A DNA stretch of 64,000 bases from Candidatus Dojkabacteria bacterium (GCA_016929645.1 JAFGIK010000086.1:408-64407), one strand, 5' to 3'; numbered from the stretch's first letter, positions 2,196-63,570 are shown. Notes: generated by a model not told the origin, from the sequence alone. A program made the numbers and translations.

Positions 2196-3548
2196 CTACT
2201 CCGCTTCTTCGAGAGTTACATCTACATTAATGTATTTTCCATCCCTCAATATCTTCATTTCAACCTTATCTCCAATATCATAAGTTTGAATAATGTCAGA
2301 AAATGATGTGACAATATCCTTACCATCAACCTGAGTAATAATATCACCAATCTTGATTCCGGCTTTCTCCGCAGGACTGTTTTTTGAAACACGCTTAACA
2401 TCAGCACCGTATACAAGATTGCCTTCAACAATAGCTGAATAATCAGTTACTAATGAATACTCAACCCCTAAATATGGTTGAATAAATTTACCGTTCTTTT
2501 TATATTCACTTATCCTTCCTTTTGCTTTATTTATCGGAAGCGCAAATGAAATATTGTCTGCACCGACAGTTTTAGTAAAATTAATTCCAATTACATTCCC
2601 ATCAGAATCAAGCAATGGCCCGCCAGAGTTACCAGGATTCACAGATGCATCAGTTTGAATTACATCCTCATACGTCCTGCTTGTACTCCAAAAACCCTCA
2701 CTCGTAGCAGCGGTGACAGATCGTCCAAGCCCACTAATAATTCCTGTAGTTACACTTCCTGGATAATTGCCCAGTGGTGTCCCAATAGCAACAACATACT
2801 GCCCAACAAGCAGATCATCAGAATTGCCAAGAGCCAAAGCATTAAAGTCTTTTCCATCAATCTTCAAAATCGCAATATCATTTACATTATCTCTGGCTAT
2901 ATCCTCAACTTCATATTTTTTCCCATCACTGGTAATTACGATATAGTTACTCGATGTATTTGAGACAACATGTTGATTAGTTAAAACCAGTCCAGATTCA
3001 TCAATAATAAAACCTGTTCCAATATTGTAAGAATCCGAAGTATTTTCTGAATCCTTAATTGCTACAGTAACAACTCCATCCTTGGTTTCATCAACAACAT
3101 CTATAACAAAATTCTCTTCAACAACAACATTTCTTATCGTGTTTTTAGAATTATTTTCAGAATTTGATGCTTTACTAGAAGAATCAGGATCTTCACGATC
3201 ATAAGTATCTTCGATAAAATTATGATCCTCTAGCCAATGTCTAACAACAGGGACAAATGTTGCACCAATATAGACCCCTATAAAAAGCATTATCGTTAAG
3301 GAAATAATATAGCCAAAGAGCCTTATATACTGGACAATTTTGAACCTCGGCTCTTTATTATCTTTATTATCAGTTTTGTCAGGTTTTTTAGAACCTTGTA
3401 TTTTATTATCCTTTGCAATATTAACCTCACCTTTCGGAGTCATCTGGTGATTTTTGTACATACTACGAGATTCTTGATTATGAGAATGTTCATTATCTTT
3501 TTGATCAGTTTTGTTAAATTTCTTATCTTCCATCAATAAAGCCATCAT
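2196..3548 (-). CDS. htrA: HtrA/DegP-family periplasmic serine protease with C-terminal PDZ domain, N-terminal membrane anchor
   Basis: Trypsin-like catalytic motif VNPGNSGGPLLD, His/Asp region (TNQHVV...DIAILKI), PDZ-like C-terminus; hydrophobic N-terminal segment. Confidence 0.9.
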   Translation of the reverse strand: MMALLMEDKKFNKTDQKDNEHSHNQESRSMYKNHQMTPKGEVNIAKDNKIQGSKKPDKTDNKDNKEPRFKIVQYIRLFGYIISLTIMLFIGVYIGATFVPVVRHWLEDHNFIEDTYDREDPDSSSKASNSENNSKNTIRNVVVEENFVIDVVDETKDGVVTVAIKDSENTSDSYNIGTGFIIDESGLVLTNQHVVSNTSSNYIVITSDGKKYEVEDIARDNVNDIAILKIDGKDFNALALGNSDDLLVGQYVVAIGTPLGNYPGSVTTGIISGLGRSVTAATSEGFWSTSRTYEDVIQTDASVNPGNSGGPLLDSDGNVIGINFTKTVGADNISFALPINKAKGRISEYKKNGKFIQPYLGVEYSLVTDYSAIVEGNLVYGADVKRVSKNSPAEKAGIKIGDIITQVDGKDIVTSFSDIIQTYDIGDKVEMKILRDGKYINVDVTLEEAE

Positions 3549-3607: not shown

Positions 3608-4072
3608 TTACTCCCCAATTAGATTAACAACAATATCAGTTGTACTTGTTTTTGTAGGACAACTAATTACTAACTCAAGAGGATATTTACCCAGCTCTCT
3701 TAAAGGTTGAGAAAGTACAATATCTAAGGAAATAGAAGAGTTATCAGCTATTTTCATCTTCTTCATAATTACCTGAAGAACCTCATCTTTATCCACTGAA
3801 CCAAATAAGCGGCCACCACTACTTGCCTTAGCTTTTATCTGGAAAACTTTATTCTTGACAGATTGGGCTATTTTTATTACCTCATCAGCAGCCACAAGCG
3901 ATTGCTCTTCCTCCTGCTTCGCCGTCTTCTTGGCCTGAGCCAAAACATTATCAGAAGCAACAGCTGCAATCTTTCGTGGGATTAGAAAATTTACGGCATA
4001 TCCAGATTTAATTTCTACAATATCACCCTTCTTCCCAATTCCCTTACAGTCTTCTATCAAAACTACTTTCAT
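3608..4072 (-). CDS. rplI: 50S ribosomal protein L9
   Basis: N-terminus MKVVLIEDCKGIGKKGDIVEIKSGYAVNFLIPRKIA is the canonical L9 signature. Confidence 0.93.
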   Translation of the reverse strand: MKVVLIEDCKGIGKKGDIVEIKSGYAVNFLIPRKIAAVASDNVLAQAKKTAKQEEEQSLVAADEVIKIAQSVKNKVFQIKAKASSGGRLFGSVDKDEVLQVIMKKMKIADNSSISLDIVLSQPLRELGKYPLELVISCPTKTSTTDIVVNLIGE

Positions 4073-4076
4073 AGTA

Positions 4077-5363
4077 TTAAATTTTAGAATTTAGATACTT
4101 GAGAGCCTCATCCATCTGAGGATCATCCCCATCTTTAAACTCCTGATCACTTATGTCAATTTTCTTATCAGGTTCAATAACATTATCAGGGTTCAGCCAG
4201 GTACCATCAGGCAATAACCACTTAAAAATAGTAATATGCAAACTTGATCCATCTGTAAAATCAACAATATCCTGAGCAGTACCTTTGCCATAAGTTTCCT
4301 CACCGATGATATATGCCCTATCATTTTGTTGCATAGCTCCTGCGAAAATTTCAGAAGCAGACGCGCTACCTCCATTAACGAGCACTACCACAGGAATATC
4401 CAGCATATTTCCGTCTCTGTCTACCGTAAATGAAGTCTGATCTCCTTCGCGATCTTCTTGTTTTACTACAACGGTACCAGAATCAAGGAAATCACCAGCT
4501 GCCCACACTGCAGCACTGAAATACCCACCTGGGTTTCCTCGAAGATCAATAACCAAAGCCTTAGGCTTTTCTTTTTTAACATCCTCAATAACTGAATCCC
4601 ATTTTTGTTCCCAAGCTACAAGCGAACTTTCAGTAAATCTATCTACGTCAACGACAGCAATATCCCCTTCCATTCCTTCAAAGGTAATACTTGGAGCCTT
4701 AATTTCATCACGAGTTACTACAATATCCTCTGTTTCACTACCATCTTTATGTAATACTGTAATTTCTACATCAGTGCCTTTTTCTCCTCTTAACAAAGCG
4801 ACAACTTCATACAAACCTTTCCCTGTAACATCATTGCCATCTACTTTTAATACTTTATCTCCAGATTTCAAACCTGCCTCTATCGCAGGCGATCCCTCCA
4901 ATGGGGAAATGATAACAACATAACCATCTTCATAACCCATTTCAGCACCAATTCCTTCAAACTTGCCTTGATTTCCATCCTTGTATTGCTGAGTTTCCTC
5001 TGGTGTTAAATAAACAGTTGCAGGATCATCCAATCCGTCAACCATACCCTTAATTGCACCATAATACATTTCCTGTTGGTCCAAATCTTTGTCAACATAT
5101 TGTGTAGCCAAAGTCTCCCAAACTTCCCAAAATCTATCAAAATCTAACTCTGTTACATCATTATTTTCTGTTTTTCCTACAATCTTATATAGATTTGAAA
5201 CGTCATTACTTTTTGACCCTCCCCAAACTTTTCCAGAAAAAAAACCTACTGTAAAAACACAGAAAATAACGAGAACAAGCCCTATAAAATTAAGAAATCT
5301 ATTAATACTTAATGAACTTACGTCCTTATTCGCATTAATTGAAGAAACCTTAGCTTTAACCAT
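4077..5363 (-). CDS. ctpA: carboxyl-terminal processing protease (S41 family, PDZ domain)
   Basis: S41 motif LVIDLRGNPGGYFSAA, PDZ region (GIGAEMGYEDGYVVIISPLEGSPAIEAGLKSGDKVLKVDG), N-terminal TM anchor. Confidence 0.88.
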   Translation of the reverse strand: MVKAKVSSINANKDVSSLSINRFLNFIGLVLVIFCVFTVGFFSGKVWGGSKSNDVSNLYKIVGKTENNDVTELDFDRFWEVWETLATQYVDKDLDQQEMYYGAIKGMVDGLDDPATVYLTPEETQQYKDGNQGKFEGIGAEMGYEDGYVVIISPLEGSPAIEAGLKSGDKVLKVDGNDVTGKGLYEVVALLRGEKGTDVEITVLHKDGSETEDIVVTRDEIKAPSITFEGMEGDIAVVDVDRFTESSLVAWEQKWDSVIEDVKKEKPKALVIDLRGNPGGYFSAAVWAAGDFLDSGTVVVKQEDREGDQTSFTVDRDGNMLDIPVVVLVNGGSASASEIFAGAMQQNDRAYIIGEETYGKGTAQDIVDFTDGSSLHITIFKWLLPDGTWLNPDNVIEPDKKIDISDQEFKDGDDPQMDEALKYLNSKI

Positions 5364-5467
5364 ATCTATTAATAAAATACTAATTTAAAATCATACTTAA
5401 CATTAGTATTATACCACAGGGTAAAAATAGTGGATTATCAAAAACTAGTAAAATAAATCATAATCTA

Positions 5468-7132
5468 TCAAAGATATTGTGAAGGATTTTGAATAAAATC
5501 CCGTCTAAGCATACGTTGTAGCTGAATCATTTTTCCTAGTAAAGTTGCTCCTGCGGTTCTTGATCGACAAATTTTCTTACCTGAAAAGAATTCATCTAGA
5601 CCGCAAATTCGATCCTGCTCAGATCTTAATTTCAAAAACTCTCCTGTACCTCGCCGTACTCGATTAAGTCTATAACTATTTCTTGATTTAGCTATTCCGA
5701 TAGCTTTCTGTAAGCTACTTTGAGGATATCCTGCTTTGAGATATTCAATGGAGGCAATTGTAGATAAGGCTTCAATCTCAGTATCCATAATTAATTTAGA
5801 AACACGGTATCTAACTGATTCGTCCTCATTATATATTTGATCTAAAGAATATCCAGGATAAAATAACTGCCATAATTCTAATCTGCTATCAGAACAAAAT
5901 TTTTGAACAAATCCTAATTCTTCATTAAAAAGGTTTAGAACTTGATCAACACTCAATCTCTCAAGATCTGAATAACCTTGTTCAGGATAGTTATCTTGAA
6001 TGTATCCGAGAAGAAGTCTTGAGTATCCATCAAATAGCAGCTTATTGAGTCTGAGTTTTTCTGCACTTTTATTTTCAGGATTATCCAGAACATTGGCAGA
6101 AATAAACATCATTTCCAACATATAGTTATCAAACACTTGAGTTTTTACACGATCAGTCATCAAATATTGCAATGAGTGACCCGTACCCTCATAATCTTCA
6201 TCGTACCATCCATACTTATCAAGCCAGTAATCAGCAAAACCTTTAAATTCTGATTCATTTTGACGTCTCCACTCATTCGCAATAACAGTCATCTGTTCAT
6301 TAGAAAGAGAATAATTAGCCACAAACTGTTCATCTATCTGACTCATACAAGTCTCATCCCATTCACACACACGCGTCAAGTATTCACTCATTGTAGAAAT
6401 ATCTATTCCAATCATGCTGATTACAGGGATATCCTGATCCGGTGTTGCCCCTGTTATATGAACTGGGGCAACTTTTGATTCTTGAGAAAACATAGTATCC
6501 AATGGATTGATTCCAGATAAATCGTCGGTCAAGAAGGGAGAAGGATCATCATAAAACAATAAATATTGTAAACCCTCGACAGTAAGAACACCTTCGTTTG
6601 CAGGTGATGCCGGAATAAGATAGAAAAGCCCATTTGTGGATCTTACGGAATAGATAGCGATCGATTGATCAGGGATACGATTATCCAAAGACGAAAGCAG
6701 ATCAGCTGGATTTTCAATTCCTGCCTCAGTCATCATACGGACATAATGCTTGCGGACTGCAGACATAGCGAAATCAATATCAACAAGATTTGCTCCTTCA
6801 CCAATTCTGAATTTATACATATTTACACCACTATCCCTGGTTTCCGATTCTACTTTTATTTCTGTACCAGATGTAATCACTTCTGAGTGCTGAATTTCAT
6901 ATCGAGGTGGAAATTTGGACATATGATCTTCATTAAATGCAGGCTGACCAAATTGGTTTAATACTATATCGCCAGCTTTACTTGATATACCTGAAGAAAG
7001 AGGAGATGTTGTAGGTATTTTATCTCCTGTAGAGCTTGTATCAGGTGTACGATTATTTGGCGTACTACAGGCGGTAAATGATGTAATTGCTGCAGCTAGA
7101 ACTAATCTGATTCCCTTACTTTTAAGATCCAT
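5468..7132 (-). CDS. predicted lipoprotein of unknown function (554 aa)
   Basis: Signal peptide with lipobox LAAAITSFTAC followed by a Ser/Thr/Pro-rich linker; no recognisable catalytic motif. Confidence 0.6.
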   Translation of the reverse strand: MDLKSKGIRLVLAAAITSFTACSTPNNRTPDTSSTGDKIPTTSPLSSGISSKAGDIVLNQFGQPAFNEDHMSKFPPRYEIQHSEVITSGTEIKVESETRDSGVNMYKFRIGEGANLVDIDFAMSAVRKHYVRMMTEAGIENPADLLSSLDNRIPDQSIAIYSVRSTNGLFYLIPASPANEGVLTVEGLQYLLFYDDPSPFLTDDLSGINPLDTMFSQESKVAPVHITGATPDQDIPVISMIGIDISTMSEYLTRVCEWDETCMSQIDEQFVANYSLSNEQMTVIANEWRRQNESEFKGFADYWLDKYGWYDEDYEGTGHSLQYLMTDRVKTQVFDNYMLEMMFISANVLDNPENKSAEKLRLNKLLFDGYSRLLLGYIQDNYPEQGYSDLERLSVDQVLNLFNEELGFVQKFCSDSRLELWQLFYPGYSLDQIYNEDESVRYRVSKLIMDTEIEALSTIASIEYLKAGYPQSSLQKAIGIAKSRNSYRLNRVRRGTGEFLKLRSEQDRICGLDEFFSGKKICRSRTAGATLLGKMIQLQRMLRRDFIQNPSQYL

Positions 7133-7262
7133 AATTTATGTTCAAAAAAATTACGCCAAACATTTGTCATTATAACAAAACAAAGGGAAAATTGGGAATT
7201 CCATAGCTGAAATATACTAATATTGGGGCATCACAAGAATACTTCGGTCATTAACACACAAC

Positions 7263-8333
7263 CTAAATCAACACAAAACTATTTTCGGAAAGTAATACTT
7301 TCCTTCCACTATCAAGAATAACTTGTATCAAATCTTCATTATCCATAATGCTAATTACCTTGGCAGTATAGCCCCAAAAAGGAAGATCAAGAATTTTCAC
7401 AAAGTCTCCAATTTTAACAAGCCTCACAGGACAAATATCGACATTATTAAAATCTGGAATATTTACAAAAAAACTTCGCTTCTTTATATTCTCTCGATCG
7501 TCATGATAAAGCACAATCGATTCCCTATCAACATCAAGATAAGTGAACTTATCCTTATGACTGGATAATAAATCTAATAACACAGCATTTATTGGTATCG
7601 TACCCCACCCTTCAGTAACAAATATTGGGATAACTTCATCCTTTATACCGTCAAATTCGGCACGATCAACAGCACCTACAATTATGCCGGAAACATCATT
7701 TTCTACAGCAGCTTCATAAAGCTTGAACGTCAGTTTTCGACCAAGTACAAGAATCTTGCCCTTACATGATTCATCAATGTCGGATGTAGAGTACATGGAG
7801 TTTCCATCTTTTATTAATTTCAATTTCCCTCCCTTACTTTCACCCACACACGTAAAAGCCTTGGCTACAAAACCATTTACTGAAAAACTGATACTTCGTC
7901 GATAGTTGCTTAGAGGTAGGATATTGAAGACCTTGCCATAGATACCTGCTTTCACACTTGAATATTCAGAAGGAGCCATGATATCAACAAAACCAGAAGA
8001 CAGACGATCAAGAGCAACCTTCCCATTATATTGAGAAAAAGCAATTTTCTCTGCAAGACCAAAGGAAACGGAGCGACGCGCAATTACTTCTCCCTTATCA
8101 ATAATCTCCCCTTGATCTTTGAGTAAATATTTGCCAACTTCATCGACATTCACACCCAAATCTTTTGGTAGATTTATTGACTGCAATACTTCAGAAGATT
8201 CTCCTTCAAAGATTAACGAATCTGGACTAATCTCATCACCCTTTGATACAACACAGCTAGCAGATCCAGAAAAATCTATTGAGATTTCTTCATCAGTTGA
8301 ATAGTAAATTTTCTTTTCTTCAACCCCAATCAT
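7263..8333 (-). CDS. hypothetical protein with KOW-like C-terminal motif (356 aa)
   Basis: C-terminal IGDFVKILDLPFWGYTAKVISI resembles the KOW motif (GDxVxVxxGPFxGxxGxV). Start overlaps the upstream gene stop by about 4 nt, indicating co-transcription. Confidence 0.5.
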   Translation of the reverse strand: MIGVEEKKIYYSTDEEISIDFSGSASCVVSKGDEISPDSLIFEGESSEVLQSINLPKDLGVNVDEVGKYLLKDQGEIIDKGEVIARRSVSFGLAEKIAFSQYNGKVALDRLSSGFVDIMAPSEYSSVKAGIYGKVFNILPLSNYRRSISFSVNGFVAKAFTCVGESKGGKLKLIKDGNSMYSTSDIDESCKGKILVLGRKLTFKLYEAAVENDVSGIIVGAVDRAEFDGIKDEVIPIFVTEGWGTIPINAVLLDLLSSHKDKFTYLDVDRESIVLYHDDRENIKKRSFFVNIPDFNNVDICPVRLVKIGDFVKILDLPFWGYTAKVISIMDNEDLIQVILDSGRKVLLSENSFVLI

Positions 8334-8337
8334 TTGA

Positions 8338-9696
8338 TTAATACGAAAGGTTTAAATTATTTAACCACCTTGAAAGGCGACTTCTATTTTGCATTATTCC
8401 AGGTCCATAAACAATTGGAGATTCACGACAATCAATCACAAGCTTATCGCAAGGATTTTTAAAACTCAAAGAAAATTCAGAATTTGATCCATTAAGAGAA
8501 GGGAAGAATGCCCCATTCTGCGGACGAAATTTTACATACTCAGCTTCATGAATATTCATCGTATAAAAATCGCCAAACACTCCAAGTATTGGCTCCATCG
8601 AAGGTGTTCTTTTGTCATCCGGAAGTAAAGTCAACTCCTTATATGAAATATTATTATCTTCTTTAAAGTTAATATGACCTTTGAAGCATACTGAACCTAT
8701 ATTAGAATCATTTCCACCCTCACATGTAAGATATTTAATAGAAGGATTAAAAAGTCGCTTTATCGAACAAATAAAATCTTTCTTTAACTCTGGATTCAAC
8801 ACAACAGATCCATTTATAAAATTCTCGTCATTATCGAAAATGACATCAAAATTTCCTCTAAGTTGCAAACCGTCAATTACTGATAGGAAAATCAATTCGT
8901 TCGAAAGAATTTTTGTTAAATCTCCAGTGATCAATAAAGCAGCTCTCAATCCATCTCTACCAAGTTTATTAAATTCGCTATCTTTAATTTTTATCAATTT
9001 TAAAGTCAATAAAGAACGAAAAATATCTTTAACATCAACGGAAGAACAGTTTAATACGGGATCCTTCATGACATTATGCAAGAAATTATCCAATTCCTGA
9101 CTATTTATATTCACGGAAAGAGTATTAGAAATCAACGGTAGAAGATTATCTATATCAGAAACAAACTTCGAATGATACTCCTTGATACTATCGACAACAG
9201 AATCTTGCGCATTAGTGTTATTACCGAGATGAAAAACATCAATATCATCCCAACCTAAATCAACCACAACCAGGTCATCCACTTCAAGAAGCTCTCTTAT
9301 TCTGATAATCTCTTTTGATTTCGAACTATCATTGTACAAAACAGATCTTACTCCAAGAACATTTGAATAAAAATCTTTTTGATAAAACTTAGGACATACA
9401 AGCAAAAATGCTTCAGTGACGCCTAAGCCATCCTCCTGCATAGGCCGTATCAAGGAATTGTCCTCATTGATAAACTTCCAATCAACCTCGCGAACCCAAT
9501 TCTTTAGAAATTTAGCACAGAGACTATCAAGCAATGACAATGAAAAATCTGTGGGAATTCTGACATAATCAGACGTAACAAGAGAATCTCCTGTTACATA
9601 ATCAGAAATTATCAGAGAAAATCTTACGCTTACATCAGTTACTGCAACAATAAGTCTATTATCCTGTCTCTCAGTTGGATATTTGGGCAGATTCAT
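8338..9696 (-). CDS. hypothetical protein, possibly a divergent actin/Hsp70-fold (ASKHA) ATPase-like protein (452 aa)
   Basis: VVVDLGWDDIDVFH matches DxGxxxxD phosphate-2 spacing (compare DIGGGTTD in MreB/FtsA). N-terminal IVAVTDVSVRFSL resembles a degenerate phosphate-1 motif. LLITGDLTK resembles an adenosine motif. Pattern-level call only. Confidence 0.35.
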   Translation of the reverse strand: MNLPKYPTERQDNRLIVAVTDVSVRFSLIISDYVTGDSLVTSDYVRIPTDFSLSLLDSLCAKFLKNWVREVDWKFINEDNSLIRPMQEDGLGVTEAFLLVCPKFYQKDFYSNVLGVRSVLYNDSSKSKEIIRIRELLEVDDLVVVDLGWDDIDVFHLGNNTNAQDSVVDSIKEYHSKFVSDIDNLLPLISNTLSVNINSQELDNFLHNVMKDPVLNCSSVDVKDIFRSLLTLKLIKIKDSEFNKLGRDGLRAALLITGDLTKILSNELIFLSVIDGLQLRGNFDVIFDNDENFINGSVVLNPELKKDFICSIKRLFNPSIKYLTCEGGNDSNIGSVCFKGHINFKEDNNISYKELTLLPDDKRTPSMEPILGVFGDFYTMNIHEAEYVKFRPQNGAFFPSLNGSNSEFSLSFKNPCDKLVIDCRESPIVYGPGIMQNRSRLSRWLNNLNLSY

Positions 9697-9748: not shown

Positions 9749-10096
9749 CTATTTTGTCAGAGAAACATAAGGAAGTAAAGCCATATATCTTGCATTTTTT
9801 ATAGCTCTGGCTAGCTGTCTTTGATGCTTTGCACACATACCTGATTTATCACGTCCAATAATTTTACCTCTTACAGAGGTATATTTCTTAAGCTGATATA
9901 CATCTTTGTAGGTGATATATTGAACGCCAGCTTCACATAAAGGACATTTCAAATCAACATCTACTCTTTTTCGACGCCTCGTCCTCTTTGTAGGTTCATC
10001 ACCAAGAATAGACTTATCGTCAAAGACATCAGTCAAAGCTTTACCTTCTTTTTTTTCCATTAAGATATCTGTTTTTGGTTCTTTTATATCTGGCAT
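9749..10096 (-). CDS. rpsR: 30S ribosomal protein S18
   Basis: RRRKRV...CPLC...YKDV..LKKY.S.RGKI..R..SG.CAKHQR.LA.AIK.AR signature. Confidence 0.93.
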   Translation of the reverse strand: MPDIKEPKTDILMEKKEGKALTDVFDDKSILGDEPTKRTRRRKRVDVDLKCPLCEAGVQYITYKDVYQLKKYTSVRGKIIGRDKSGMCAKHQRQLARAIKNARYMALLPYVSLTK

Positions 10097-10124
10097 AGTA
10101 ATTTTATCCTTATTTTATAATCAT

Positions 10125-10661
10125 TTAAAATGGAAGTTCATCCTCTAACGGGTCGTTACTTTTGTCATCATCTGACACCTCTTCGGATTTTGAAGCTTCT
10201 TTTGATTTGTCATCAGAAACTTCAGCCTTTTCTTCACTAACAGGTGCATCAACTGTTGATCCAGAGTTTGCAACAGGCTCAGCTCCTTCACCATTACCTG
10301 CTCCGCCACCTACTCCTGACTTCCCTTTACTGTCAAGAAGAATCATCTCATTTAATTTGATTTCTGTTCGATACTTGGTCTCACCTGAATCATCTTCCCA
10401 AGTCCTAGTCCGAAGTTCACCTTCTACGTAGACTTTCATACCCTTGGCAAGTAGCTGATAACAAACTTCAGCCATTTTATTCCAAGCAACGACATTGTGG
10501 AATTCAGCCTCTTCTTTAATATTACCCTCAGCATCTTTCCAACTTCTGTTAGTTGCTACACCAAATGTACACATACCAGCACCACTTGATGTATAACGAA
10601 TCTCAGGATCTCTAGTAAGATTTCCTATCAATATAACCTTATTTAATGATCGAGTAGCCAT
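10125..10661 (-). CDS. ssb: single-stranded DNA-binding protein
   Basis: OB-fold N-terminus (NKVILIGNLTRDPEIRYT), Gly-rich linker, acidic C-terminal tail ending DELPF. Confidence 0.93.
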   Translation of the reverse strand: MATRSLNKVILIGNLTRDPEIRYTSSGAGMCTFGVATNRSWKDAEGNIKEEAEFHNVVAWNKMAEVCYQLLAKGMKVYVEGELRTRTWEDDSGETKYRTEIKLNEMILLDSKGKSGVGGGAGNGEGAEPVANSGSTVDAPVSEEKAEVSDDKSKEASKSEEVSDDDKSNDPLEDELPF

Positions 10662-10745
10662 TAAACTAAAAAATAAATTTATATTATATTACTAAGTATA
10701 TCTGTCAATAATTAAAAAATATTAAAACACCTCGAAAAGCAAGAA

Positions 10746-11090
10746 TTAAATATCTATAACCTTTTTATTAAGATTCTTCCCTTTTTCCTCAGGACTATTT
10801 ATCCTTGTTATCAAGTATCTCAAAACCTCTGTAATTCTTGATAATGCAACCTCAATTTCGCTTAAGCCTGAAGATGGAATTTTAAGTTCGTATACAATAT
10901 AATATCCCTCTTCATGCTTCTTTATAGGGTAAGACAAATATCGTTTGCCCCAAACATCTGCACCAACAACATCCCCGCCAAGTTTTTTAACAGCATCTAG
11001 GATTATTGTATGTGCATTTTTTCTAACATCATCTGGAAGAAGTGGCTTAAAAATAACCATCAATTCATATGCCTTCAAATTCTTTTCCAT
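10746..11090 (-). CDS. rpsF: 30S ribosomal protein S6
   Basis: MEKNLKAYELMVIFKP... S6 signature; begins the rpsF-ssb-rpsR operon. Confidence 0.9.
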   Translation of the reverse strand: MEKNLKAYELMVIFKPLLPDDVRKNAHTIILDAVKKLGGDVVGADVWGKRYLSYPIKKHEEGYYIVYELKIPSSGLSEIEVALSRITEVLRYLITRINSPEEKGKNLNKKVIDI

Positions 11091-11259: not shown

Positions 11260-12378
11260 TCATGCAGCACTGTGAATCAGAATATAATCACCATCCTGGA
11301 TAAGGTACTCCTTACCCTCAACCCTCACCAACCCTTTTTCTTTTGCATTATTCCAACCACCAGAATCAATCATATCTTCGACATTAACAACCTCTGCTCT
11401 AATAAAATTTTGTTCAAAATCAGTATGGATTACTCCAGCAGCCTCTTTAATAGTAGCTCCACTGGCGATAGACCATGACCTTGCATCTTTTTCGTTTCCA
11501 GTAAAAAACGATAATAAGTCTAATCTCCTGTACGCTAGCTTAATAATTTCTTCTACCCCTTTGTAATCATCAATCATAGAAAGAAATTCTTTTTTATCAT
11601 CAGCCTGATAGGAATCAAGTTCACCTTCAAGTTTGCAATCTACTGTTAATATAAAATTGCACTCATCCTCAGGTATATTCTTTTTAAGATCACTTATCCA
11701 TTGTTCAAGCTCAGGTTCATTTACTCCGTTTTTTACATTTAGTAAATAAAATGCCTTTTTGTCAGTCAATAGCCAGAGATCTTTAACAAATTCCCGCTCT
11801 TCTTCAGTTAAATCAATTGATACCACAGGAATCTCATTATTTAGACCCACCGAAACTTTTTCGAGCCCGGAAAGTTGAATTTTCAGGTCATCCGTCATTC
11901 CAGATTTTGTCATTTTTCTTATTTCGTTTAGTTTTTTTTCAACAGTCTCCATATCTTTAAACATCAATTCCGATCTTACAATCTTCAAATCATCAACAGG
12001 ATTAATTTTATCGTAAACATGAGTCACATTCTCACTTTTAAATGATCGAAGAACATACATGATAGCGTTCACTTCACGAATATGACCAAGAAATTGATTT
12101 CCAAGCCCTTCCCCTTTTGATGCACCTTTAACGAGTCCTGCAATATCTACAAAGGTCATTGCAGAAGGAATTTTCTCTGCCGAGTTATAAAATGCAGCAA
12201 GCTTTTCGAGTCTTTTGTCAGGAATCTTCACAACCCCAACATTTTTGTCAATCGTACAAAATGGATAATTCTCTGCAGGAACTGCACTTTTGGTCAATGC
12301 ATTAAAAATCGTCGATTTCCCCGAATTTGGCAATCCTACAATCCCAATAGATAAATTGTGAGATCTTGTTACTGACAT
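11260..12378 (-). CDS. ychF: ribosome-binding ATPase YchF (Obg-family GTPase)
   Basis: P-loop IGIVGLPNSGKSTIFNALT, a G3 DxxG motif (VDIAG), C-terminal TGS-like domain; 372 aa. Confidence 0.9.
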   Translation of the reverse strand: MSVTRSHNLSIGIVGLPNSGKSTIFNALTKSAVPAENYPFCTIDKNVGVVKIPDKRLEKLAAFYNSAEKIPSAMTFVDIAGLVKGASKGEGLGNQFLGHIREVNAIMYVLRSFKSENVTHVYDKINPVDDLKIVRSELMFKDMETVEKKLNEIRKMTKSGMTDDLKIQLSGLEKVSVGLNNEIPVVSIDLTEEEREFVKDLWLLTDKKAFYLLNVKNGVNEPELEQWISDLKKNIPEDECNFILTVDCKLEGELDSYQADDKKEFLSMIDDYKGVEEIIKLAYRRLDLLSFFTGNEKDARSWSIASGATIKEAAGVIHTDFEQNFIRAEVVNVEDMIDSGGWNNAKEKGLVRVEGKEYLIQDGDYILIHSAA

Positions 12379-63156: not shown

Positions 63157-63233
63157 GCCGATGTAGCTCAGTTGGCTAGAGCAACGGTTTTGTAAACCGT
63201 AGGTCATGAGTTCGAATCTCATCATCGGCTCCA
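63157..63233 (+). tRNA. tRNA-Thr (anticodon UGU), CCA encoded
   Basis: Cloverleaf read by eye: acceptor GCCGATG/CATCGGC, D-arm AGCTCAGTTGGCTAGAGC, anticodon stem ACGGT/ACCGT with loop TTTGTAA, T-arm GGTTCGAATCC. Confidence 0.9.
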
Positions 63234-63255
63234 AGGATTCGTGTAACAATTTTGT

Positions 63256-63341
63256 GCAGGGATGCCAGAGTGGTCAAATGGTCTGGACTGTAAATCCAGC
63301 GCCGCAAGGCTACACAGGTTCAAATCCTGTTCCCTGCACCA
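63256..63341 (+). tRNA. tRNA-Tyr (anticodon GUA), long variable arm, CCA encoded
   Basis: Acceptor GCAGGGA/TCCCTGC, anticodon stem CTGGA/TCCAG with loop CTGTAAA, long variable arm (class II), T-arm GGTTCAAATCC. Confidence 0.9.
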
Positions 63342-63365
63342 GATAAAACTTCAAGAAGCCTAGCA

Positions 63366-63438
63366 GCTGGAATAGCTCAGTTGGCAGAGCGCATCCATGG
63401 TAAGGATGAGGTCCCGAGTTCGATCCTCGGTTCCAGCT
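63366..63438 (+). tRNA. tRNA-Thr (anticodon GGU), no encoded CCA
   Basis: Acceptor GCTGGAA/TTCCAGC, anticodon stem CATCC/GGATG with loop ATGGTAA, T-arm GAGTTCGATCCTC. Confidence 0.88.
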
Positions 63439-63570
63439 TTTTGGAAAGAATATGATTGGAAAAGAATATCAATCACCACTCCCGATATTCGAAAACATTC
63501 AGTTTATGTAGTCGTCAACAAAGCATTTCTACAAAAAACTTATTATTCACAAAAATCAACAGGTATTCGC

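What the first reader, a model, noticed from the sequence alone, without database searches (positions are those of the whole stretch)
5468..9696. Three-gene cassette of unknown function splitting the conserved rpsF-ssb-rpsR-rplI operon
S6, SSB and S18 (9749-11090) and L9 (3608-4072) are normally contiguous or nearly so. Here rpsR is followed by two translationally coupled unknown genes (8338-9696 and 7263-8333, overlapping by about 4 nt), a 554-aa lipoprotein (5468-7132) and ctpA before rplI. None of the three unknowns has a confident family assignment. A novel module sitting in a highly expressed, conserved ribosomal operon stands out.
Basis: partly seen in the sequence, partly recalled or inferred. 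Interest (0 to 1): 0.75.

Follow-up and report, generated by a model that had tools for sequence, protein, structure and literature searches.

The report
Degenerate GlmL-like gene pair after rpsR
Two of the three "unknown" genes are a conserved pair, an actin-fold protein that has lost its ATP-binding loops and its partner protein, found after the S18 gene in every Dojkabacteria locus examined and derived from a widespread, unstudied two-gene module; the third is an unrelated orphan lipoprotein gene.

Summary
The ORFs exist at the stated coordinates in a Candidatus Dojkabacteria (CPR) contig, but this is not a three-gene cassette splitting an operon.

- **Gene A (8338-9696) and gene B (7263-8333).** They lie 4 nt apart, not overlapping. 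The order S6-SSB-S18-A-B-...-ctpA-(L9)-htrA recurs in all 8 distinct Dojkabacteria loci examined.
- **Gene A.** It is a remote homologue (hhalign probability 96.6-98.3%) of a GlmL/MutL-like (PF13941) actin-fold ATPase.
- **Pairing elsewhere.** That ATPase sits directly upstream of a B homologue in 68 of 77 assessable loci from about 20 bacterial and archaeal phyla.
- **What A kept and lost.** A keeps the subfamily signature (DGLQLxG..D, DxRx[KR]P...W) but has lost all three nucleotide-binding motifs and is about 150 aa shorter.
- **Gene B.** It combines a barrel-sandwich hybrid, a swivelling β/β/α domain and a KOW/SH3 domain. It has no Pfam family and no literature.
- **Gene C (5468-7132).** This orphan lipoprotein-like gene has its own extended -10 promoter and occupies a slot that varies between relatives.
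- **rplI.** It is coupled to ctpA, not to rpsR.

Function is unknown. My best inference is an A-B complex in which A is a non-catalytic partner. Interest is moderate.

The parts
10746..11090 (-). rpsF (ribosomal protein S6), first gene of the run
   Evidence: Pfam Ribosomal_S6 E 2.9e-21. A promoter-like site lies at 11179-11151.
10125..10661 (-). ssb
   Evidence: Pfam SSB E 3.8e-37.
9749..10096 (-). rpsR (ribosomal protein S18)
   Evidence: Pfam Ribosomal_S18 E 2.1e-21. S18 lies directly upstream of A in all 8 Dojkabacteria loci.
8338..9696 (-). Gene A: a 452-aa shortened GlmL/MutL-like actin-fold (ASKHA) protein that lacks the nucleotide-binding motifs
   Evidence: - hhalign of the 65-sequence A profile against 58 GlmL-like partners of B gives probability 98.3% (E 1.5e-13) in global mode and 96.6% in local mode.
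- The motifs are lost in A but nearly invariant in M.
9286..9666 (-). A residues 11-137: ASKHA domain I (βββαββα in the model), with the phosphate-1 loop degenerate
   Evidence: Secondary structure of the AF2 model. D21 is present in only 11 of 65 family members and there is no DxGSTxTK motif.
8827..9276 (-). A residues 141-290: ASKHA domain II. Phosphate-2 (VVDLGWDDID) and the adenosine motif (TGDL) are degenerate. The signature N208, D224, R227, G258, D275-G-L-Q-L-R-G281 and D288 is conserved.
   Evidence: The equivalent positions are nearly invariant in the 58 M proteins.
8341..8799 (-). A residues 300-452: β-rich C-terminal domain plus a terminal helix, carrying the invariant D422-x-R424-x-x-P427-x-x-Y-G-P...N437...W444. 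It corresponds to the C-terminal extension of M that lies beyond the end of the GlmL family models.
   Evidence: hhalign alignment, conservation, and the GlmL models ending near M residue 485. Model confidence is low here.
7263..8333 (-). Gene B: a 356-aa partner protein from an undescribed family, starting 4 nt after A's stop codon
   Evidence: 20 homologues besides the window's own protein and 142 relatives in GTDB genomes. AF2 pLDDT 81. A GlmL-like gene lies directly upstream in 68 of 77 assessable loci outside Dojkabacteria.
7950..8309 (-). B residues 9-128: barrel-sandwich hybrid (biotinyl/lipoyl-like, RnfC_N/NqrA_N-like) domain
7506..7937 (-). B residues 133-276: swivelling β/β/α domain with conserved GK(I/V)hh.G, G(I/V)(I/V)(V/A/T)G(G/A) and (T/S)EG(F/W)(G/S) loops (h = hydrophobic) and no conserved His
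7266..7421 (-). B residues 305-356: KOW/SH3-like β-barrel
7169..7198 (-). Promoter-like site (TTCCCA-18 nt-TATAAT with an upstream TG) in the 130-nt B-C spacer
   Evidence: sequence. It is a consensus match only.
5468..7132 (-). Gene C: a 554-aa orphan lipoprotein-like protein that is not part of the A-B module
   Evidence: Only a self-hit among 5.8 billion proteins. No similarity to the genes occupying this slot in other Dojkabacteria. Host-like codon usage.
5408..5416 (-). Extended -10-like element TGGTATAAT upstream of ctpA
   Evidence: Read from the spacer sequence. Not experimentally supported.
4077..5363 (-). ctpA (S41 C-terminal processing protease), conserved downstream of A-B in Dojkabacteria
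   Evidence: Pfam Peptidase_S41 E 2.6e-44. Synteny.
3608..4072 (-). rplI (L9), starting 4 nt after the ctpA stop codon
   Evidence: Pfam L9_N E 1.1e-18 and L9_C E 8e-9. Spacer sequence.

Best explanation
The rpsR-ctpA interval holds two unrelated things.

1. **Genes A and B.** They are a translationally coupled pair and the Dojkabacteria-specific, reduced form of a two-protein module widespread in uncultivated bacteria and archaea. That module is a GlmL/MutL-like actin-fold (ASKHA) ATPase ('M', about 610 aa) followed by a roughly 375-aa protein made of a barrel-sandwich hybrid, a swivelling β/β/α domain and a KOW/SH3 domain.
2. **Gene C.** It is an orphan lipoprotein-like gene with its own promoter in a variable slot.

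Shown:
- A is homologous to M, and A has the ASKHA fold.
- A has lost the phosphate-1, phosphate-2 and adenosine motifs, which are nearly invariant in M.
- A retains the subfamily signature in domain II and in the C-terminal domain.
- The order S18-A-B-...-ctpA is fixed in all 8 Dojkabacteria loci examined.

Inferred:
- A and B form a complex, from strict adjacency and coupling in more than 70 genomes.
- The M/A-specific C-terminal domain is the B-docking part. It is seen only in the B-linked proteins examined and lies beyond the end of the GlmL models.
- In Dojkabacteria, A no longer hydrolyses ATP. It serves as a non-catalytic scaffold or regulatory subunit for B, whose swivel and KOW domains contact an unknown target.
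- The pair is co-transcribed with rpsF-ssb-rpsR as a housekeeping function.

The pair is not an insertion that split rpsR from rplI.
For: **Homology**
- hhalign of the A profile against a single M sequence gives probability 68%.
- Against a 58-sequence M profile it gives 98.3% (global) and 96.6% (local), E 1.5e-13 and 5.5e-10, over about 420 columns.
- The A HMM hits M proteins directly, down to E 2.6e-11.

**Fold**

**Motifs**
- In M, DxGSTTTK, D(I)GGATTD and GSGG are conserved in 50-58 of 58 sequences.
- In A these positions are not conserved.
- The shared signature residues are conserved in both families.

**Pairing**
- M lies directly upstream of B in 68 of 77 assessable loci, with a median gap of 12 nt, across about 20 phyla.
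- B follows A in seven Dojkabacteria loci; in the eighth (L096) the contig ends 75 nt into the next gene, which starts 8 nt before A's stop.

**Synteny**
-. This includes a complete 1.04-Mb genome and the most distant A-family member found (E 5.9e-4).

**Gene C as a separate unit**
-.

**No mobile-element signs**
-.
Against:
- Loss of the canonical motifs does not prove loss of nucleotide binding. The A model has only moderate confidence (pLDDT 66, built from 3 sequences).
- The many conserved charged residues in A (N208, D224, R227, D275, D288, D422, R424) could form a catalytic site. In that case A would not be a mere scaffold.
- Co-transcription with rpsR is inferred only from a 52-nt spacer without a terminator-like hairpin. 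The rpsR-A spacer varies from 18 to 484 nt among relatives.
- The function of the ancestral M-B module is itself unknown.
Confidence: 0.6

Rival explanations
1. One reading: A, B and C form one novel three-gene cassette that was inserted into, and split, a conserved rpsF-ssb-rpsR-rplI operon.
For: All the genes are on one strand between rpsR and rplI, and none has a curated family.
Against: - C has no homologues and is replaced by unrelated genes, or by nothing, in relatives.
- A-B follows rpsR across the whole A family.
- There are no flanking repeats, and composition and codon usage match the host.
- rplI is coupled to ctpA and is patchy within the class.
Confidence: 0.04
2. A is still an active enzyme or chaperone. 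The A-B pair would then work like canonical GlmL-type accessory proteins (ATP-dependent reactivation or remodelling of a client enzyme), or would use the conserved D/R/N cluster for other chemistry.
For: - A derives from a GlmL-like family. [quoted passage not shown]
- A keeps many invariant charged residues.
Against: - All three nucleotide-binding loops are unconserved across the 65 A sequences, whereas they are nearly invariant in M.
- No B12-dependent mutase or other obvious client gene lies nearby in any locus.
- Dojkabacteria have very small metabolic repertoires (PMC7304191).
Confidence: 0.15
3. A-B is a ribosome- or nucleic-acid-associated factor. B's KOW domain would dock on a ribosomal protein or on rRNA, which would explain the fixed position after rpsF-ssb-rpsR.
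For: - B has a KOW/SH3 C-terminal domain similar to the NusG CTD, Spt5 KOW domains and uL24.
- The pair is linked to S18 in all 8 Dojkabacteria loci.
- In WOR-3 genomes B lies close to era, pheS, rplT, rpmI and infC.
Against: - In most phyla M-B lies in non-ribosomal contexts, often with membrane-protein genes.
- KOW/SH3 barrels are generic protein-binding modules.
- The sequence matches to KOW are sub-threshold.
Confidence: 0.15
4. A-B acts at the membrane or envelope together with the downstream membrane-anchored proteases CtpA and HtrA. These would replace the membrane-protein partners seen in other phyla.
For: - In other phyla M-B is often clustered with DUF6754 and three or four other membrane proteins.
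- In Dojkabacteria, ctpA and htrA follow A-B in every locus long enough to show it.
Against: - Variable, unrelated genes, including an antitoxin and cytoplasmic proteins, separate B from ctpA.
- ctpA has its own promoter-like element.
- No homologue of the membrane partners is present in any Dojkabacteria locus.
Confidence: 0.1

Closest known systems
GlmL/MutL, the methylaspartate (glutamate) mutase accessory protein family (Pfam PF13941, NCBIfam TIGR01319/NF040745)
   Same: - Both have the ASKHA fold.
- The B-linked M proteins match PF13941 at E 1.4e-130.
- A is homologous to M by profile-profile comparison.
   Different: - A itself does not match PF13941 even at E <= 1.
- A lacks the ATP-binding motifs and is not next to a B12 mutase.
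- Even M scores below the GlmL equivalog cut-offs (239 bits against 475; 165 against 204) and extends about 120 aa beyond the C-terminal end of the GlmL models.
Diol/glycerol dehydratase reactivase (DdrA/DdrB)
   Different: - There is no sequence-level relationship.
- No DdrB-like subunit and no dehydratase genes are present.
- A lacks the ATP-binding motifs.
- B adds barrel-sandwich and KOW domains.
Phospho-histidine swivel domains of PEP-utilising enzymes (Enzyme I, PPDK, rifampin phosphotransferase), and RraA / AcnX small subunit
   Different: No conserved His (TSH motif) occurs anywhere in the B family, so B is not a phosphoryl carrier of that type.
NqrA / RnfC N-terminal region
   Different: - The membrane proteins that accompany M-B in other phyla show no similarity to Nqr/Rnf subunits or to any solved structure.
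- B has no Fe-S or flavin motifs.
E. coli-type rpsF-priB-rpsR-rplI operon
   Same: rpsF, an SSB-fold gene and rpsR are contiguous and co-oriented.
   Different: rplI is not adjacent to rpsR in any Dojkabacteria locus. It follows ctpA, or is missing from that position.

Membership tests
GlmL/MutL family (PF13941 / TIGR01319) | Match to the family HMM at its curated threshold | tested here: not met
   A has no PF13941 or TIGR01319 hit even at E <= 1, and none of the 65 A-family members hits it at E <= 0.01. The M proteins do match: PF13941 at E 1.4e-130.
GlmL/MutL family (PF13941 / TIGR01319) | Actin-like (ASKHA) two-domain fold | tested here: met
GlmL/MutL family (PF13941 / TIGR01319) | ASKHA nucleotide-binding motifs (phosphate-1 DxGSTxTK, phosphate-2 DxGGxTTD, adenosine GSGG) | tested here: not met
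   They are not conserved in the 65 A sequences but are nearly invariant in the 58 M sequences.
GlmL/MutL family (PF13941 / TIGR01319) | Gene placed between or next to B12-dependent mutase subunit genes | tested here: not met
   The neighbours are ychF, rpsF, ssb and rpsR on one side and ctpA, rplI and htrA on the other. The same holds in the relatives.
B-linked GlmL-like subfamily ('M'; unnamed, defined here) | Profile-level homology over domain II and the C-terminal extension, with the shared signature N...(D/E)xxR...G...D.....G......D and DxR..P...W | tested here: met
   hhalign probability 96.6-98.3%. The signature is conserved in both families.
B-linked GlmL-like subfamily ('M'; unnamed, defined here) | A B-family gene immediately downstream on the same strand | tested here: met
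   In the window there is a 4-nt spacer. It holds in seven Dojkabacteria loci; the eighth (L096) ends 75 nt into the next gene, and in 68 of 77 assessable loci elsewhere.
B-linked GlmL-like subfamily ('M'; unnamed, defined here) | Accompanying membrane-protein genes (DUF6754, s124, m231, p281, m238). This is frequent but not universal. | tested here: not met
   HMMs of these six families (including s158) find nothing in the window or in the Dojkabacteria loci. Only 64 kb of this genome was available.
PEP-utiliser phospho-His swivel domain (for B) | Conserved phosphorylatable His in a TSH loop | tested here: not met
   There is no invariant or nearly invariant His in the 21-sequence B alignment. 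Only the fold is similar.
Biotinyl/lipoyl carrier domains (for B) | Modified Lys at the hairpin tip (MKM or DKA motif) | tested here: not met
   The only near-invariant Lys (K80) lies in an xKDEVIA strand motif typical of RnfC_N/NqrA_N-type hybrids. The Pfam hits are sub-threshold.
NusG/Spt5 (for B) | NGN domain plus a KOW domain above threshold | tested here: not met
   There is no NGN domain, and KOW appears only sub-threshold. The structural similarity is limited to the roughly 50-aa barrel.
rpsF-ssb/priB-rpsR-rplI operon | rplI directly downstream of rpsR | tested here: not met
   In the window they are 5.7 kb apart, and rplI starts 4 nt after ctpA. They are never adjacent in the relatives.
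Mobile cassette / genomic island | Flanking repeats, an integrase or transposase, or deviant composition | tested here: not met
   Only short chance repeats were found. GC content is 0.32-0.38, like the flanks, codon usage is host-like, and there are no PHROGs or PADLOC hits.

The most novel reading that the evidence does not exclude
A-B would be the minimal surviving core of a completely uncharacterised, ATP-driven, membrane-associated multi-protein system. That system comprises a GlmL-like ATPase, the BSH-swivel-KOW protein, DUF6754 and four or five further membrane or small proteins, and is present in about 20 bacterial and archaeal phyla. In the streamlined Dojkabacteria it would have been rewired into an ATP-independent, essential housekeeping factor expressed from the S6-SSB-S18 operon, possibly acting on ribosomes or nucleic acids through B's KOW domain.
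Probability: 0.2. Interest if true: 0.7.

Novelty: new variant of a known kind. Interest (0 to 1): 0.45.

Why it matters
- **Retention in reduced genomes.** CPR genomes are heavily reduced, so a gene pair retained after rpsR in every Dojkabacteria locus examined is likely to matter for the cell. Yet it has no annotation.
- **An entry point.** Linking it to GlmL-like ASKHA proteins gives a starting point for study. It also gives a natural comparison: an ATP-motif-less derivative against ATP-motif-intact relatives.
- **A wider unknown.** The work exposes a widespread partner family (B) and an associated set of membrane proteins. I found no Pfam model for any of them except DUF6754, and no paper naming PF13941, TIGR01319 or DUF6754.
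- **A correction.** The apparent "split ribosomal operon" is the ancestral arrangement in this class.
- **L9.** L9 is present in some Dojkabacteria, contrary to the general statement in the literature.

Tried and rejected
- **Curated libraries.** Pfam, NCBIfam, PADLOC and PHROGs scans of A, B and C found nothing usable.
- **Shallow profile.** hhalign of the 3-sequence A profile against one M protein was uninformative (probability 2.7%). The link appeared only after a 65-sequence profile was built from the exhaustive HMMER search.
- **Nqr/Rnf idea.** B weakly resembles NqrA/RnfC. I therefore asked whether the accompanying membrane proteins (DUF6754, m231, m238, p281) are Nqr/Rnf-like. Profile searches of all four against PDB sequences found nothing, and Pfam found nothing beyond DUF6754. 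I dropped the idea.
- **Phospho-carrier or lipoyl-carrier role for B.** Rejected because there is no conserved His or hairpin Lys.
- **Mobile-island reading.** Rejected.
- **Terminators and RNA elements.** No convincing intergenic terminator or stable structure was found, and Rfam finds only tRNAs far away.
- **Literature.** Searches for PF13941, TIGR01319, DUF6754, and ASKHA with glutamate mutase returned no papers.
- **Gene C.** There are no homologues anywhere, no paralogues in the window and no similarity to the slot genes of relatives.
- **Unavailable tool.** The afdb50 fold library could not be searched.

Full report
**Source and observation**

The window is a Candidatus Dojkabacteria (candidate division WS6, CPR/Patescibacteria) contig. 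The three proteins are identical to NCBI hypothetical proteins JW887_05555, JW887_05550 and JW887_05545 from a 64.5-kb contig.

- ychF 11260-12378
- rpsF 10746-11090
- ssb 10125-10661
- rpsR 9749-10096
- gene A 8338-9696 (452 aa)
- gene B 7263-8333 (356 aa)
- gene C 5468-7132 (554 aa)
- ctpA 4077-5363
- rplI 3608-4072
- htrA 2196-3548

Pfam confirms the flanking genes and gives nothing for A, B or C. NCBIfam, PADLOC and PHROGs also give nothing. Codon usage is host-like in frame across all three ORFs, and GC content matches the flanks.

One detail is wrong. A and B do not overlap; they are separated by 4 nt (TAA-TCAA-ATG).

**The three genes are not one unit**

Gene C has no homologue other than itself among 5.8 billion proteins.

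In other Dojkabacteria the space between B and ctpA varies:
- It is empty in L003, L092 and L095.
- It holds an unrelated 324-aa gene in L001.
- It holds a MazE-like gene plus three small unrelated genes in L008.

None of these resembles C.

The 130-nt B-C spacer contains a promoter-like TTCCCA-18 nt-TATAAT with an upstream TG. The C-ctpA spacer contains TGGTATAAT. rplI starts 4 nt after the ctpA stop codon. No terminator-like hairpin or stable structure is present in the rpsR-A, B-C or C-ctpA spacers.

The likely transcription units are therefore rpsF-ssb-rpsR-A-B, then C, then ctpA-rplI(-htrA). This is inferred, not shown.

**Synteny in Dojkabacteria**

A has only two word-index homologues (28-29% identity). 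An exhaustive HMMER profile search against 1.84 billion representatives found 110 family members of about 380-480 aa. Every member that carries a source name is WS6/Dojkabacteria.

I examined eight distinct loci:
- the window
- L001
- L003
- L008
- L092
- L094
- L095, from the complete 1.04-Mb genome CP129478.1
- L096, which carries the most distant member (E 5.9e-4)

In every one, A lies directly downstream of rpsR. Wherever the contig continues, B follows A, and then ctpA and htrA.

rplI sits between ctpA and htrA in four of these loci and is absent from that position in L092 and L095. There are no flanking repeats or mobile-element genes. So A-B is ancestral at this position. It did not split rpsR from rplI.

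**What A is**

The AF2 model (pLDDT 66, pTM 0.73, built from only 3 sequences) has two βββα-type lobes and a β-rich C-terminal domain.

- type III pantothenate kinase
- PilM
- FtsA
- EutJ
- Ppx

Foldseek agrees.

The decisive lead came from B. Its distant homologues in three distantly related genomes (two of them Cloacimonadota and Marinimicrobia) sit immediately after a 604-632-aa PF13941 'MutL' (GlmL-like) gene.

The evidence that A is related to this 'M' protein built up in steps:
- The 3-sequence A profile against one such M protein was uninformative (probability 2.7%).
- The 65-sequence A profile gave probability 68% (E 4.7e-5) against a single M sequence.
- Against a 58-sequence M profile it gave 98.3% in global mode and 96.6% in local mode (E 1.5e-13 and 5.5e-10) over about 420 columns.
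- The A HMM also hits M proteins directly, down to E 2.6e-11.

M matches PF13941 at E 1.4e-130. It falls below the NCBIfam GlmL cut-offs and extends about 120 aa beyond the C-terminal end of the GlmL family models. A aligns to this extension, including the motif DxR(G)(R)P...W.

**Loss of ATP-binding motifs**

In the 58 M proteins the motifs are nearly invariant:

| Motif | Sequence in M | Conservation in M |
|---|---|---|
| Phosphate-1 | DxGSTTTK | 54-58 of 58 |
| Phosphate-2 | D(I)GGATTD | 51-58 of 58 |
| Adenosine | GSGG | 50-58 of 58 |

In the 65 A proteins these positions are not conserved. The phosphate-1 Asp is present in 11 of 65 and the phosphate-2 Asp in 30 of 65. There is no GG-TTD, and a single Gly remains of GSGG.

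By contrast, the following A residues are 90-100% conserved, and the aligned M positions are equally conserved:
- N208, D224, R227 and G258
- D275, G281 and D288
- D422, R424, P427, Y430, G431, N437 and W444

A is also about 150 aa shorter than M. A is therefore a reduced member of the B-linked GlmL-like subfamily. It has kept the subfamily-specific surfaces and lost the canonical nucleotide site.

**What B is**

B has 20 word-index homologues besides itself and 142 relatives in GTDB species genomes. None has a Pfam domain.

There is no conserved His and no hairpin Lys, so B is not a phosphoryl, biotinyl or lipoyl carrier. The glycine-rich loops are conserved: GK(I/V) plus hydrophobics and G, G(I/V)(I/V)(V/A/T)G(G/A), and (T/S)EG(F/W)(G/S). 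Dojkabacteria B proteins lack two conserved segments of the canonical family, GYDIGVAITGxE and ATQIRAGVIRPEVIIP.

**The wider module**

In 80 GTDB loci I called ORFs and searched them with HMMs. Of 77 assessable B genes outside Dojkabacteria, 68 have an M gene directly upstream on the same strand, with a median gap of 12 nt.

The phyla include:
- Marinimicrobia, Cloacimonadota and Elusimicrobiota
- Zixibacteria and Bacillota
- Chloroflexota, Planctomycetota, Lentisphaeria and Eisenbacteria
- Gemmatimonadota
- Bathyarchaeia and other Thermoproteota

The exceptions are WOR-3, where B lies next to accA and era, and Poribacteria.

Clustering of the neighbours shows a recurrent extended cluster: (gcvPA/PB) - s158 - s124 - M - B - (s124) - DUF6754 - m231 - p281 - m238. 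Most of these are membrane proteins. Apart from DUF6754 they have no Pfam family, and none has a PDB relative.

None of these partners is found in the window or in any Dojkabacteria locus. I found no literature naming PF13941, TIGR01319 or DUF6754.

**Mechanism**

[quoted passage not shown] Glutamate mutase (MutL) is listed among the non-polymerising members of the actin superfamily (PMC5597319). DdrA, the diol dehydratase reactivase, combines an ASKHA ATPase with a swivelling domain; this is my own knowledge.

By analogy, M-B is most simply read as a two-subunit, ATP-driven remodelling or adaptor machine, often working with membrane proteins.

For Dojkabacteria I infer three things:
- A and B still form a complex, with the A/M-specific C-terminal domain as the probable docking site.
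- A has become a non-catalytic partner.
- The pair is expressed with S6-SSB-S18.

The target is unknown. The candidates are the ribosome or nucleic acids (through the KOW domain and the operon context), or the envelope proteases CtpA and HtrA (through conserved downstream synteny). I rank these as rivals rather than conclusions. I am confident about identity, homology and synteny. I am much less confident about the mechanism.

**Verdict**

- a conserved two-gene module that is a new, ATP-motif-less variant of a GlmL-like ASKHA protein and its partner
- an unrelated orphan lipoprotein gene
- no operon-splitting insertion

Interest is moderate. The function is unknown, but the pair is fixed in the reduced genomes sampled, and it points to a widespread, unstudied system.

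Noticed in passing
window 3608-4072 (-); L001, L003, L008 compared with L092, L095: A bona fide rplI (L9_N E 1.1e-18, L9_C E 8e-9) is present in this Dojkabacteria contig, 4 nt after ctpA. Published CPR surveys state that Dojkabacteria lack L9 (PMC7304191). L9 occupies the ctpA-htrA slot in four loci and is absent from it in two others, including a complete genome. L9 therefore seems patchy within the class.
   Followed up: partly
L004 9249-13756; also L019, L024, L031, L034, L036, L039, L040, L046, L052, L070, L071, L076, L078, L080, L088: Outside CPR the GlmL-like/B pair is often part of a larger conserved cluster: s158, s124, M, B, DUF6754, m231, p281 and m238. Most are membrane proteins. 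Apart from DUF6754 they have no Pfam family, and none has a PDB relative or any literature. This looks like an uncharacterised multi-component system shared by many bacterial phyla and by Bathyarchaeia/Thermoproteota.
   Followed up: partly
L032, L035, L046, L053, L057, L085, L087; and L004, L011, L015, L031, L047, L052, L076: Glycine-cleavage P-protein genes (gcvPA/PB-like) lie directly upstream of the s158-s124-M-B cluster in seven loci. A CdsA (CTP_transf_1) gene lies directly upstream of M in seven loci, several of them labelled Marinimicrobia. I cannot tell whether this reflects function or inherited gene order.
   Followed up: no
L006, L026, L033, L041, L042, L069, L072 (WOR-3, where labelled); L073, L079, L086 (Poribacteria): In these lineages B occurs without an adjacent GlmL-like gene. 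In the WOR-3-type loci it sits in a conserved run: AIRS-domain gene, B, a 278-aa unknown, accA, era, then pheS-rplT-rpmI-infC on the other strand.
   Followed up: no
L014 3-2535, L038 3-1514, L063, L065, L071, L084 1558-4789: Some Bacillota (Fermentithermobacillaceae and others) carry a second, paralogous M-B pair in which B is longer (467-503 aa), sometimes a few kb from the canonical pair.
   Followed up: no
L008 8741-9022 (-) and 9189-10856; L001 11249-12223; window 5468-7132: The interval between B and ctpA is a variable slot in Dojkabacteria. It holds a MazE-like antitoxin gene and small unrelated ORFs in one genome, a 324-aa unknown in another, the orphan lipoprotein here, and nothing in three others.
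   Followed up: partly
window 9749-10096 (-): The S18 ORF is 115 aa, with the Pfam S18 domain only at residues 58-108. The first 55 or so residues are a charged extension (…KRTRRRKRVD…). The S18 gene called in L003 is only 69 aa, so the true start or extension may differ between lineages.
   Followed up: no
window 63157-63439 (+): There is a tRNA cluster, Thr(TGT)-Tyr(GTA)-Thr(GGT). Rfam at its gathering threshold reports only the first two.
   Followed up: no
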